Virus record (IMG/VR): IMGVR_UViG_3300020190_000008 | DNA: 64,000 bases | Source of the DNA: a virus | Direction: 5' to 3' (one strand) | Shown here: one piece after another, positions 55,957-56,876 of the stretch | Layout of the letters: every line of letters begins with the position of its first letter | Position numbering within the stretch: the first letter of the stretch is position 1 | Made by a program: the position numbers and the translations under genes | The notes under the pieces: generated by a model | Databases searched by the model: none | What the model was told of the DNA's origin: nothing | Seen by the model: the letters and a program-made list of their open reading frames with translations, nothing else

Positions 55957-56800
55957 AACGTTGAGATTACACGTTTTATTGAGAACCTTTAGAGTCATTA
56001 TTGTTTCTACTCTTATCCACCATCTTTTGAATGGTATTTCTCATTGCCGATTATTTAGGTGAATCACTCCTTAACGATATAACTACTCTCCTATTACTTA
56101 ACTCTCTCCGAGAATGCCTTCCCAGTAAATCCTTGCGAGATTAGAGGTTTTTGGTAGAAATACATTCGGTCTTGGGAACCTTATGTGCCGTGAACATCTC
56201 ACGACTAAGTGGGCAACTTCCGTTATACCGTGATGGACACTTTTCCATTATTACTTTTATGATTTTTATATCCAATTATAAAAAAATGTTTTTGTGTTGT
56301 GGATTATCGAAGTTGTGGTCCACCTAAAGTTTCATTATCTTTTGGATTATGAAATACTAAACAACTTCGTGAAACTTCCCAGTTTCCATACTTCAAGACT
56401 ACTTCGTGTCTAACTTCTTGGTTCAAGTTTGACAAGGTGAATAACGGCACCACCCGTACATTAACATACCTTTCGGTTTTAAACAATCTCTAATATTGGA
56501 ACACGCAATGATAAAATTGGATAATTCTATTTTTTGCAATATTCCTACGGGTTATTCCTATTAGTGTTCCCACTTCAATCAGACGACCCACATCGCCCAA
56601 TCATCTAACCACTTTCCCTACAGCGTTGCCCTCGGTATTAAAGGTTAAACGGTATCCCGCTTGTGTACTCACGTTCAGTTTCCCAAACCGCAAACCATTT
56701 ACACGAATGATTCACTTTATCCTGGTTTCCCAGTTTATTTTATGGACTATACACGGCCCAATATCTTTATCAGTTTCATTACTTACTCCTGAACGGATAA
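55957..56800 (-). ncRNA. Large (~850 nt) structured ncRNA, GOLLD-like candidate
   Basis: No credible ORF; raised GC; GNRA hairpins (CTGG-GAAA-CCAG, ACC-GAAA-GGT, AATCTC-GCAA-GGATT); host-type promoter, leader hairpin and boxA upstream. Confidence 0.65.
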
Positions 56801-56808
56801 TTCTATTT

Positions 56809-56876
56809 TCAAAGAACGTTTTCGGTCATTCCCGAATTGTTTTACAAAGTTAAGACATTTATTTTGATTTGTCAAG
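56809..56876 (-). promoter_or_regulatory. Promoter plus boxB-like hairpin plus boxA leader of the large ncRNA
   Basis: CTTG-N20-TAACTTTG; TTCGG-GAATGA-CCGAA hairpin; GTTCTTTGA. Confidence 0.65.

What the first reader, a model, noticed from the sequence alone, without database searches (positions are those of the whole stretch)
55957..56876. ~850-nt structured non-coding RNA with an rRNA-like leader (GOLLD-like or a new class)
Seen: about 850 nt with no credible ORF in an otherwise densely coding genome, raised GC, several GNRA-capped hairpins on the minus strand, longer helices (CGAAGTTGT...ACAACTTCG), a terminal AACGT-GTAATCTCA-ACGTT hairpin, and a host-type promoter, hairpin and boxA upstream. 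Established: GOLLD RNAs are about 800 nt, phage-associated, often near tRNA genes, and of unknown function. The GOLLD assignment is inferred from size and context only.
Basis: partly seen in the sequence, partly recalled or inferred. Interest (0 to 1): 0.75.

Follow-up and report, generated by a model that had tools for sequence, protein, structure and literature searches.

The report
Phage GOLLD RNA with rRNA-style leader
The gene-free stretch is a full-length GOLLD RNA, a known giant phage RNA that builds a 14-copy cage, and it appears to be transcribed behind a copy of the host's ribosomal-RNA antitermination leader.

Summary

- **Identification.** Rfam's GOLLD model (RF02032) matches end to end at 56369-55958 on the minus strand, at 302 bits against a cut-off of 150.
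- **5' half.** Rfam does not model the 400 nt upstream of that match. They are the GOLLD 5' domain: they share the motifs of the cryo-EM GOLLD env-38, align with more than 100 IMG/VR phage GOLLDs, and carry strong covariation (94 of 124 predicted pairs).
- **Setting.** The window is part of a 128-kb fragment of a large phage. Its promoters suggest a Bacteroidota host.
- **Leader.** A -33/-7 promoter is followed by a covarying hairpin and then GTTCTTTGAAA. This element is conserved in front of 75 of 78 related GOLLDs. It also precedes this phage's tmRNA and its tRNA-like cluster, and 9 of 12 tmRNAs in related loci. It sits at the boxA position of 55 of 88 Bacteroidota 16S leaders. It lies outside the RNA whose cage structure was solved.
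- **Inference.** The phage probably recruits host Nus factors to transcribe and fold its stable RNAs. This is not shown.
- **Expression.** This could not be checked.

It is a new member of a known class, with a leader feature that may not have been reported before.

The parts
56845..56875 (-). Promoter of Bacteroidota type: -33 TTG (56875-56873, within TTGACA), a 20-nt spacer, then -7 TAACTTTG (56852-56845). The predicted start is near 56840.
   Evidence: Read from the sequence. It is almost invariant in 25 distinct related leaders. A TAnnTTTG motif lies within 70 nt upstream of the boxA-like element in 54 of 78 GOLLD loci. The start site is not mapped.
56821..56836 (-). Leader hairpin, in the boxB position: UUCGG-GAAUGA-CCGAA.
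   Evidence: dG -6.4 kcal/mol, z -2.7. In 25 leaders 92.8% of cells are paired, 3 of 5 pairs show compensatory changes (UUCGG/CCGAA, UCAGG/CCUGA, AUCGG/CCGAU), and 0 of 500 shuffles reach the observed score.
56807..56817 (-). boxA-like element GUUCUUUGAAA.
   Evidence: It matches 10 of 11 positions of the gamma-proteobacterial boxA consensus GYTCTTTAANA (PMC5725501). GTTC[TA]TT[GA]A is found 60-250 nt upstream of 16S in 55 of 88 Bacteroidota rRNA leaders, at 3.29/kb against 0.0675/kb background. It is present upstream of 75 of 78 related GOLLDs. It lies outside the solved env-38 RNA.
56308..56761 (-). GOLLD 5' domain (P1-P13, the cap domain of the cage). The P13 hairpin is 56369-56308.
   Evidence: Its start aligns with nucleotide 1 of the cryo-EM env-38 construct, and it shares motifs such as GGAUAAAGUG, UGCGGUUU and GAGGGUAAC. 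In an alignment of 63 sequences RNAalifold predicts 124 pairs, of which 94 have compensatory changes. P13 corresponds to Rfam model positions 1-62.
56246..56307 (-). A/U-rich variable linker (J13/15). This copy has no embedded tRNA.
   Evidence: Unpaired region of the Rfam model with low posterior probability. It varies among relatives. ARAGORN finds no tRNA here.
55958..56245 (-). GOLLD 3' domain (P14-P27, the ring domain). It includes the long-range helix 56231-56222 / 56083-56074 and the terminal P27 hairpin with loop GUAAUCUCA.
   Evidence: RF02032 match at 302.3 bits, E 1.5e-85, model positions 1-416 of 416, with few non-canonical pairs. The same result was obtained on the whole record.
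55868..55957 (-). 3' trailer: a U-run directly after P27 (55957-55951), then a strong hairpin with a U-tract at 55888-55868. The hairpin reads as a terminator on both strands.
   Evidence: Terminator scan and fold. A U-run followed by a downstream G+C hairpin lies at the same place in most of the 15 closest relatives. The 3' end is not mapped.

Best explanation
Window 56875-55868 on the minus strand is the transcription unit of a GOLLD RNA carried by a large phage.

**Shown**
- An 804-nt core (56761-55958) has the two GOLLD domains joined by an A/U-rich linker.
- The 3' domain fits the curated family model end to end.
- The 5' domain is homologous to that of GOLLD env-38 and is kept by covariation in relatives.

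**Inferred by homology**
- The RNA folds without protein and assembles into the 14-mer, D7-symmetric nanocage solved for env-38. The 5' domains form the caps and the 3' domains form the rings.

**Inferred from comparison (probability about 0.55-0.6)**
- Host RNA polymerase starts at a Bacteroidota-type -33/-7 promoter.
- It transcribes a leader of about 80 nt containing a hairpin and the boxA-like GUUCUUUGAAA.
- This element loads host NusB/NusE(S10) with NusA and NusG, as on rRNA operons.
- That would protect the roughly 900-nt untranslated transcript from Rho-dependent termination and help it fold as it is made.
- Transcription would end at the U-run after P27 or at the terminator 70-90 nt further on.
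- The leader is not part of the cage-forming RNA.

What the cage does is unknown. Here the gene sits among the phage's translation-related RNA genes: a tmRNA 380 nt away, a tRNA-like cluster 2.3 kb away and a tRNA-Arg 5 kb away.
For: **GOLLD identity**
- RF02032 matches model positions 1-416 of 416 at 302.3 bits against a cut-off of 150, E 1.5e-85.
- The 5' half is collinear with GOLLDs of two huge phages.
- One motif pair from the 5' domain retrieves more than 119 IMG/VR loci. About 100 of the 119 are GOLLD by nhmmer, most of them full-length.
- The env-38 construct begins AUGGCCGCUAUGGUCG..GGAUAAAGUGG, which corresponds to window 56761 onward.
- Of 124 predicted pairs in the 5' domain, 94 have compensatory changes across 63 sequences.
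- The source is a virus record of 127,688 bp.

**Leader**
- The promoter, hairpin and boxA-like layout is almost invariant in the closest relatives, although the flanking coding DNA has diverged.
- The hairpin covaries.
- The motif is found upstream of 75 of 78 GOLLDs.
- In 90 non-redundant loci, 119 of 178 motif hits lie just upstream of GOLLD (88), tRNA (22) or tmRNA (9 hits; 9 of the 12 tmRNA genes have one).
- In this window all three GTTCTTTGA hits are sense-strand leaders of tmRNA, GOLLD and the tRNA-like cluster.
- The same motif, with the same extension GAAAAUAUUGAAA, lies 79-177 nt upstream of 16S in Bacteroidota. It is about 50-fold (loose form) to 600-fold (strict form) enriched over background.
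- The boxA consensus is GYTCTTTAANA.
Against: - There is no expression data.
- The 9-mer alone is not over-represented in the window (4 found, 3.7 expected). The argument rests on its placement and conservation.
- No boxC-like element was identified.
- The Acinetobacter phage GOLLD examined has no boxA-like motif directly upstream; it sits inside a tRNA array.
- Near-universal conservation right before the core could also mean that the motif serves GOLLD itself, for example in processing or in a contact not present in the solved construct.
- The Bacteroidota host is inferred only from the promoter and boxA type. The 5'-domain pattern was at chance level in 401 Bacteroidota genomes.
- Cage formation is by homology only.
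Confidence: 0.9

Rival explanations
1. The RNA is GOLLD, but the GUUCUUUGA element is not a Nus-factor boxA. It would instead be a processing or stability signal, or a part of GOLLD's own fold or assembly that the solved construct lacks. Its likeness to rRNA boxA would then reflect shared RNase recognition or chance.
For: The motif sits at a nearly fixed distance (about 20 or about 58 nt) from the core in 74 of 76 loci. In huge phage LR745206 it lies between a tRNA and GOLLD, where a processing role is plausible. No boxC was found. Stable-RNA leaders are also sites of RNase action.
Against: env-38 assembles into the 14-mer without this leader. The same motif precedes tmRNA and tRNA genes, which are unrelated in structure. 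It matches the boxA consensus at 10 of 11 positions. It sits where boxA lies in 16S leaders. It is conserved as primary sequence with no covarying partner.
Confidence: 0.3
2. The region is a new class of large structured RNA, or another known large RNA such as ROOL, OLE, a group I or II intron, or RNase P, and not GOLLD.
For: Before tools were used, only size, GC content and hairpins were known. Rfam does not model the 5' half.
Against: The full-length GOLLD match is at twice the gathering score, and no other family matched, including in a permissive scan of the 5' half. The 5' half is homologous to the env-38 5' domain.
Confidence: 0.01
3. The stretch encodes small proteins or is a decayed gene, and the hairpins are incidental.
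For: There are ORFs of 43-75 aa, all with TTG starts.
Against: Substitutions among 63 relatives are compensatory in helices, and indels are not in multiples of three. None of the ORFs has an ATG start.
Confidence: 0.01
4. The gene is an intact-looking GOLLD copy that is silent or non-functional in this phage.
For: There are no expression data.
Against: The promoter, leader, all modelled helices, the conserved loops and the terminator are intact and under purifying and compensatory selection in many relatives.
Confidence: 0.04

Closest known systems
GOLLD RNA (Rfam RF02032; Weinberg et al. 2009; cryo-EM of env-38, Kretsch et al. 2025, PMC12286853)
   Same: Two-domain architecture with a core of about 800 nt. 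The 3' domain is a full-length match at 302 bits. The 5' domain is of the env-38 type. The L27 loop is GUAAUCUCA. It is phage-borne and lies among tRNA and tmRNA genes.
   Different: It has its own promoter and an rRNA-like leader, rather than a directly flanking tRNA such as the tRNA-Met next to env-38 and many relatives. It has no tRNA in the linker. The host is inferred to be Bacteroidota, whereas the groups in the family's name are Lactobacillales and lake metagenomes.
rRNA operon antitermination leader (boxB-boxA-boxC; NusB/NusE/NusA/NusG/SuhB complex)
   Same: The order is promoter, hairpin, boxA-like element. The motif matches GYTCTTTAANA at 10 of 11 positions. It is identical over about 16 nt to the element 115-140 nt upstream of 16S in Bacteroidota. 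It precedes a long untranslated structured RNA.
   Different: It is carried by a phage and placed in front of GOLLD, tmRNA and tRNA-like genes. No boxC was recognised. Factor binding and antitermination are untested.
Lambda nut sites (boxA-boxB with N protein)
   Same: A phage uses a boxA element to recruit host Nus factors.
   Different: Lambda has the order boxA then boxB, needs the phage N protein, and acts on mRNA operons. Here the order is that of rrn operons, and no N-like protein was sought or found.
ROOL RNA
   Same: A large phage-borne RNA near tRNA genes that also forms a nanocage. Several human-gut ROOL entries in the published alignment begin with UGUUCUUUGAUAUGAAAA.
   Different: The sequence and fold are unrelated, and it forms an 8-mer. 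ROOL gave no match in the Rfam scans here.

Membership tests
GOLLD RNA (RF02032) | Conserved 3' domain (P13/P14-P27) scoring above the curated gathering score | tested here: met
   302.3 bits against 150, model positions 1-416 of 416, E 1.5e-85.
GOLLD RNA (RF02032) | Long-range helix and conserved terminal loop L27 (GUAAUCUCA) in the 3' domain | tested here: met
   The bracketed 10-bp helix 56231-56222 / 56083-56074 is kept, with one G-U pair. The loop is identical to the consensus.
GOLLD RNA (RF02032) | 5' domain (P1-P13) of the env-38 type, supported by covariation | tested here: met
   Motif-level identity to the start of the env-38 construct. 63-sequence alignment. 94 of 124 pairs have compensatory changes. 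No residue-by-residue alignment to env-38 was made.
GOLLD RNA (RF02032) | Size of about 800 nt with a variable linker between the domains | tested here: met
   The core 56761-55958 is 804 nt. The A/U-rich linker is 56307-56246.
GOLLD RNA (RF02032) | Phage or prophage location near tRNA genes | tested here: met
   Virus record. A tmRNA lies 380 nt away and a tRNA-Arg 5 kb away. No tRNA abuts it, unlike many relatives.
GOLLD RNA (RF02032) | Protein-free assembly into a 14-mer nanocage | not testable with these tools
   Known for env-38 only. Inferred here by homology.
GOLLD RNA (RF02032) | Expressed as a stable RNA during phage growth | not tested
boxA / rrn-type antitermination leader | Sequence fits the boxA consensus | tested here: met
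   GTTCTTTGAAA against GYTCTTTAANA matches 10 of 11 positions. Many relatives have GTTCTTTAA, an exact match to the core.
boxA / rrn-type antitermination leader | The same element is present at the boxA position of rRNA leaders of the presumed host group | tested here: met
   The strict form is found in 18 of 88 Bacteroidota 16S leaders and the loose form in 55 of 88, 60-250 nt upstream of 16S. Enrichment over background is about 600-fold and about 50-fold respectively.
boxA / rrn-type antitermination leader | Lies in the transcribed leader, downstream of the promoter, on the sense strand | tested here: inconclusive
   It lies 27 nt after a conserved TAnnTTTG motif. The transcription start is not mapped.
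boxA / rrn-type antitermination leader | Accompanying boxB-like hairpin and boxC | tested here: inconclusive
   A hairpin lies directly upstream and covaries. No boxC was recognised.
boxA / rrn-type antitermination leader | Binds NusB-NusE and confers resistance to Rho | not testable with these tools
   This needs biochemistry or genetics.

The most novel reading that the evidence does not exclude
Bacteroidota-type phages put a copy of the host rRNA antitermination leader (hairpin plus boxA) in front of their stable RNAs: GOLLD, tmRNA and tRNA arrays. The giant cage-forming GOLLD RNA would then be made and folded by a Nus-factor-modified, rRNA-type transcription complex. This would be the first cellular machinery tied to GOLLD biogenesis, and it would give a handle for expressing the RNA and switching it off.
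Probability: 0.5. Interest if true: 0.55.

Novelty: new member of a known kind. Interest (0 to 1): 0.4.

Why it matters
GOLLD is one of very few natural RNAs known to build a protein-free cage larger than a ribosome. Its function is still unknown.

This copy adds a well-delimited example with its own promoter, leader and terminator, from a large phage of a host group outside those in the family's name.

The conserved boxA-type leader is shared with phage tmRNA and tRNA genes and with host rRNA operons. If it works as inferred, it links GOLLD synthesis to the host Nus machinery. It would also offer a simple genetic lever, mutation of the boxA, for testing what the cage does during infection.

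The class itself is already known, so the finding is confirmatory rather than surprising.

Tried and rejected
- **Literature.** Weinberg et al. 2009 is not held. I therefore could not check whether its consensus figure already shows the leader motif. A full-text search for GOLLD together with boxA returned only unrelated plant papers.
- **Direct repeat.** AACGTTCTTT occurs at both ends of the RNA (56819 and 55962). The 3' copy is simply the P27 stem plus the U-run and is not kept in relatives, so I treat it as coincidence.
- **Does the boxA type follow the host?** The one Acinetobacter phage GOLLD read has no boxA-like motif directly upstream and sits inside a tRNA array. This is uninformative.
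- **Host confirmation through prophages.** The 5'-domain pattern hit 3 of 401 Bacteroidota genomes, against 6 hits for the reversed control pattern. That is chance level, so no GOLLD prophages were found in the genomes searched.
- **Neighbourhood as a functional module.** The Clp ATPase, peptidase, 349-aa and 359-aa neighbours recur in only 3-10 of 90 loci. I read this as lineage synteny.
- **Other RNA families.** No other Rfam family matched the 5' half in a permissive scan.
- **Motif count.** The count of the 9-mer in the window is not above chance. Only its placement is informative.

Full report

Yes. Between 55957 and 56876 only ORFs of 43-75 aa with TTG starts exist, on either strand. GC rises to 0.37-0.42, against about 0.23-0.31 in most neighbouring windows.

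The named helices are present on the minus strand:
- CGAAGUUGU...ACAACUUCG at 56369-56308.
- The terminal hairpin AACGU-GUAAUCUCA-ACGUU at 55974-55958.
- Several GNRA-capped stems.

Upstream on the minus strand lie three leader elements:
- A promoter: TTG at 56875-56873, a 20-nt spacer, then TAACTTTG at 56852-56845.
- A hairpin at 56836-56821 (dG -6.4 kcal/mol, z -2.7).
- GTTCTTTGAAA at 56817-56807.

**2. What is it?**

A scan of the whole window against Rfam gives a full-length match to GOLLD (RF02032) at 56369-55958 on the minus strand: 302.3 bits, gathering score 150, E 1.5e-85, model positions 1-416 of 416. The same result was obtained on the whole record.

Rfam models only the last hairpin of the 5' domain, the linker and the 3' domain. 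A permissive scan of the remaining 5' half finds no other family.

The 5' half (56761-56370) is the GOLLD 5' domain, on four grounds:
- It is collinear with GOLLDs of two huge uncultured phages, LR756502 and LR745206.
- A motif pair taken from it, GATAAAGTGR...TTGCGGTT, retrieves more than 119 IMG/VR loci. About 100 of the 119 are GOLLD by nhmmer, most of them full-length.
- The published cryo-EM construct of GOLLD env-38 begins AUGGCCGCUAUGGUCG...GGAUAAAGUGG...UGCGGUUU...GAGGGUAAC (supplement of PMC12286853). This matches the window from 56761 onward.
- In an alignment of 63 distinct 5' domains, RNAalifold predicts 124 pairs, and 94 of them have compensatory changes.

The core is therefore 804 nt (56761-55958): 5' domain, A/U-rich linker (56307-56246, with no embedded tRNA) and 3' domain.

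The window belongs to an IMG/VR virus record of 127,688 bp that CheckV estimates at 44% complete. That points to a large phage.

**3. Surroundings**

- A tmRNA gene converges on GOLLD at 55190-55580 on the plus strand (Rfam 103.6 bits). ARAGORN missed it.
- A tRNA-Arg lies at 61967-62041.
- A GC-rich cluster of tRNA-like RNAs lies at about 59170-59890. One of them scores 24.1 bits against the tRNA model, below the cut-off of 29.
- Protein neighbours include a two-domain Clp-type AAA+ ATPase, an M20/M28-like peptidase and a pyrimidine-dimer glycosylase-like protein.

**4. The leader**

In the 15 closest relatives the flanking coding DNA has diverged, yet the stretch from the promoter through the hairpin to ACGTTCTTTGAAA is almost invariant.

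The hairpin varies by compensatory changes: UUCGG/CCGAA, UCAGG/CCUGA and AUCGG/CCGAU. It is 92.8% paired, 3 of 5 pairs show compensatory changes, and 0 of 500 shuffles reach the observed score.

Across all distinct GOLLD loci of this type:
- 75 of 78 carry GTTC[TA]TT[GA]A within 200 nt upstream of the core.
- 54 of them have a TAnnTTTG motif, mostly 26-28 nt before it.

To test the "rRNA-like" claim I fetched 120 Bacteroidota 16S loci through a conserved 16S segment and read their leaders:
- The strict motif GTTC[TA]TTGAAA lies 79-177 nt upstream of 16S in 18 of 88 leaders. There were only 2 hits in 1.13 Mb of background.
- The loose motif is in 55 of 88 leaders, at 3.29/kb against 0.0675/kb.
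- Typical leaders read ACGTTCTTTGAAAATATTGAAA. This is identical over about 16 nt to the GOLLD leader, and over more than that to the leader of the window's tRNA-like cluster.
- The published gamma-proteobacterial boxA consensus is GYTCTTTAANA (PMC5725501). The window element matches 10 of 11 positions.

The motif is not specific to GOLLD:
- In this window all three GTTCTTTGA hits lie on the sense strand in the leaders of tmRNA (55175-55183, behind TATATTTG), GOLLD, and the tRNA-like cluster (59839-59831, behind TATCTTTG).
- In 90 non-redundant GOLLD loci (779 kb), 178 motif hits split as 88 upstream of GOLLD, 22 within 150 nt upstream of a tRNA, 9 upstream of tmRNA and 59 elsewhere. Nine of the 12 tmRNA genes have one.

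The env-38 RNA that forms the cage starts after the leader. The leader is therefore not needed for assembly.

**5. How it most likely works**

Shown: the gene is an intact GOLLD with promoter-like, leader and terminator-like elements that are conserved in relatives.

Inferred by homology: the RNA forms the 14-mer D7 cage described for env-38, with 5' domains as caps and 3' domains as rings.

Inferred from comparison (about 0.55-0.6): the leader recruits host NusB/NusE with NusA and NusG, as on rRNA operons. This would make RNA polymerase resistant to Rho on a roughly 900-nt untranslated transcript and would assist co-transcriptional folding. That role of the rrn complex is established knowledge from E. 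coli (PMC5725501; PMC8632103 was listed but not read in full).

Termination would occur at the U-run after P27 or at the hairpin 55888-55868.

The main rival is that the motif is a processing or stability signal, or a GOLLD-intrinsic element (about 0.3). The function of the cage remains unknown.

**6. Comparison with what is known, and novelty**

This is a member of GOLLD. Every sequence-level defining feature that could be tested is met. Assembly and expression could not be tested.

It differs from env-38 and many relatives in having its own promoter and leader instead of an abutting tRNA-Met.

The Bacteroidota host is inferred only from the promoter and boxA type. The 5'-domain pattern was at chance level in 401 Bacteroidota genomes.

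I found no paper in the searchable library that links GOLLD with boxA. The original description is not held, so priority is uncertain.

Verdict: a new member of a known kind. The class is not novel. The leader observation is a modest, testable addition.

I confirmed the motif and the promoter-like sequence there.

Noticed in passing
window 55155-55612 (+): Phage tmRNA gene at 55190-55580 (Rfam 103.6 bits), which ARAGORN missed. It has its own TATATTTG promoter-like motif (55155-55162), a boxA-like GTTCTTTGATA 5 nt before the mature 5' end, and a terminator at 55586-55612. tmRNA genes lie within the fetched flanks of 10 of 60 related GOLLD loci, and one relative (L052) has the same convergent tmRNA/GOLLD arrangement.
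   Followed up: partly
window 59170-59892 (-): GC-rich cluster of tRNA-like RNAs behind a TATCTTTG promoter-like motif and GGTTCTTTGAAATATTGAAAA, which is almost identical to Bacteroidota 16S leaders. One unit (59613-59717) scores 24.1 bits against the tRNA model, below the cut-off, and appears to carry a long insertion. ARAGORN calls none of them.
   Followed up: partly
window 56893-57042 (-): A 49-aa ORF (pattern ..Y.Y....G....TPN.EFA..A..YGT..V..EK) ends 17 nt before the GOLLD promoter. A homologue sits in the same place and on the same strand in 31 of 105 GOLLD loci, down to 33% identity. It has no Pfam or PHROG match. It could be a GOLLD partner or simply lineage synteny.
   Followed up: partly
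window 51198-54060; LR745206 423341-425215; LR756502 440679-442553: A two-domain Clp-type AAA+ ATPase (686 aa) and an M20/M28-like peptidase lie next to the tmRNA and GOLLD. The ATPase has 59%-identical counterparts 2-6 kb from GOLLD in two huge phages of more than 630 kb. Only 6 of 90 IMG/VR GOLLD loci show it within their flanks.
   Followed up: partly
supplementary ROOL alignment of PMC12286853: Several human-gut ROOL sequences in the published alignment begin with UGUUCUUUGAUAUGAAAA. A boxA-like leader may therefore also precede ROOL, the other cage-forming phage RNA.
   Followed up: no
loci L082, L020, L017, L117, L014, L097, L115, L078, L005, L023: In many related phages a tRNA-Met (CAT) abuts GOLLD within about 10 nt, downstream or upstream. 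There the ends are probably made by RNase P or RNase Z rather than by a promoter and terminator as in this window.
   Followed up: no
L051 1081-1153 and 1802-1896; L076 4635-4707: ARAGORN calls a tRNA with anticodon CTA (an amber suppressor, labelled Pyl) and tRNAs with four-base anticodons in two GOLLD-bearing phage loci. This may hint at recoding or frameshift suppression in those phages.
   Followed up: no
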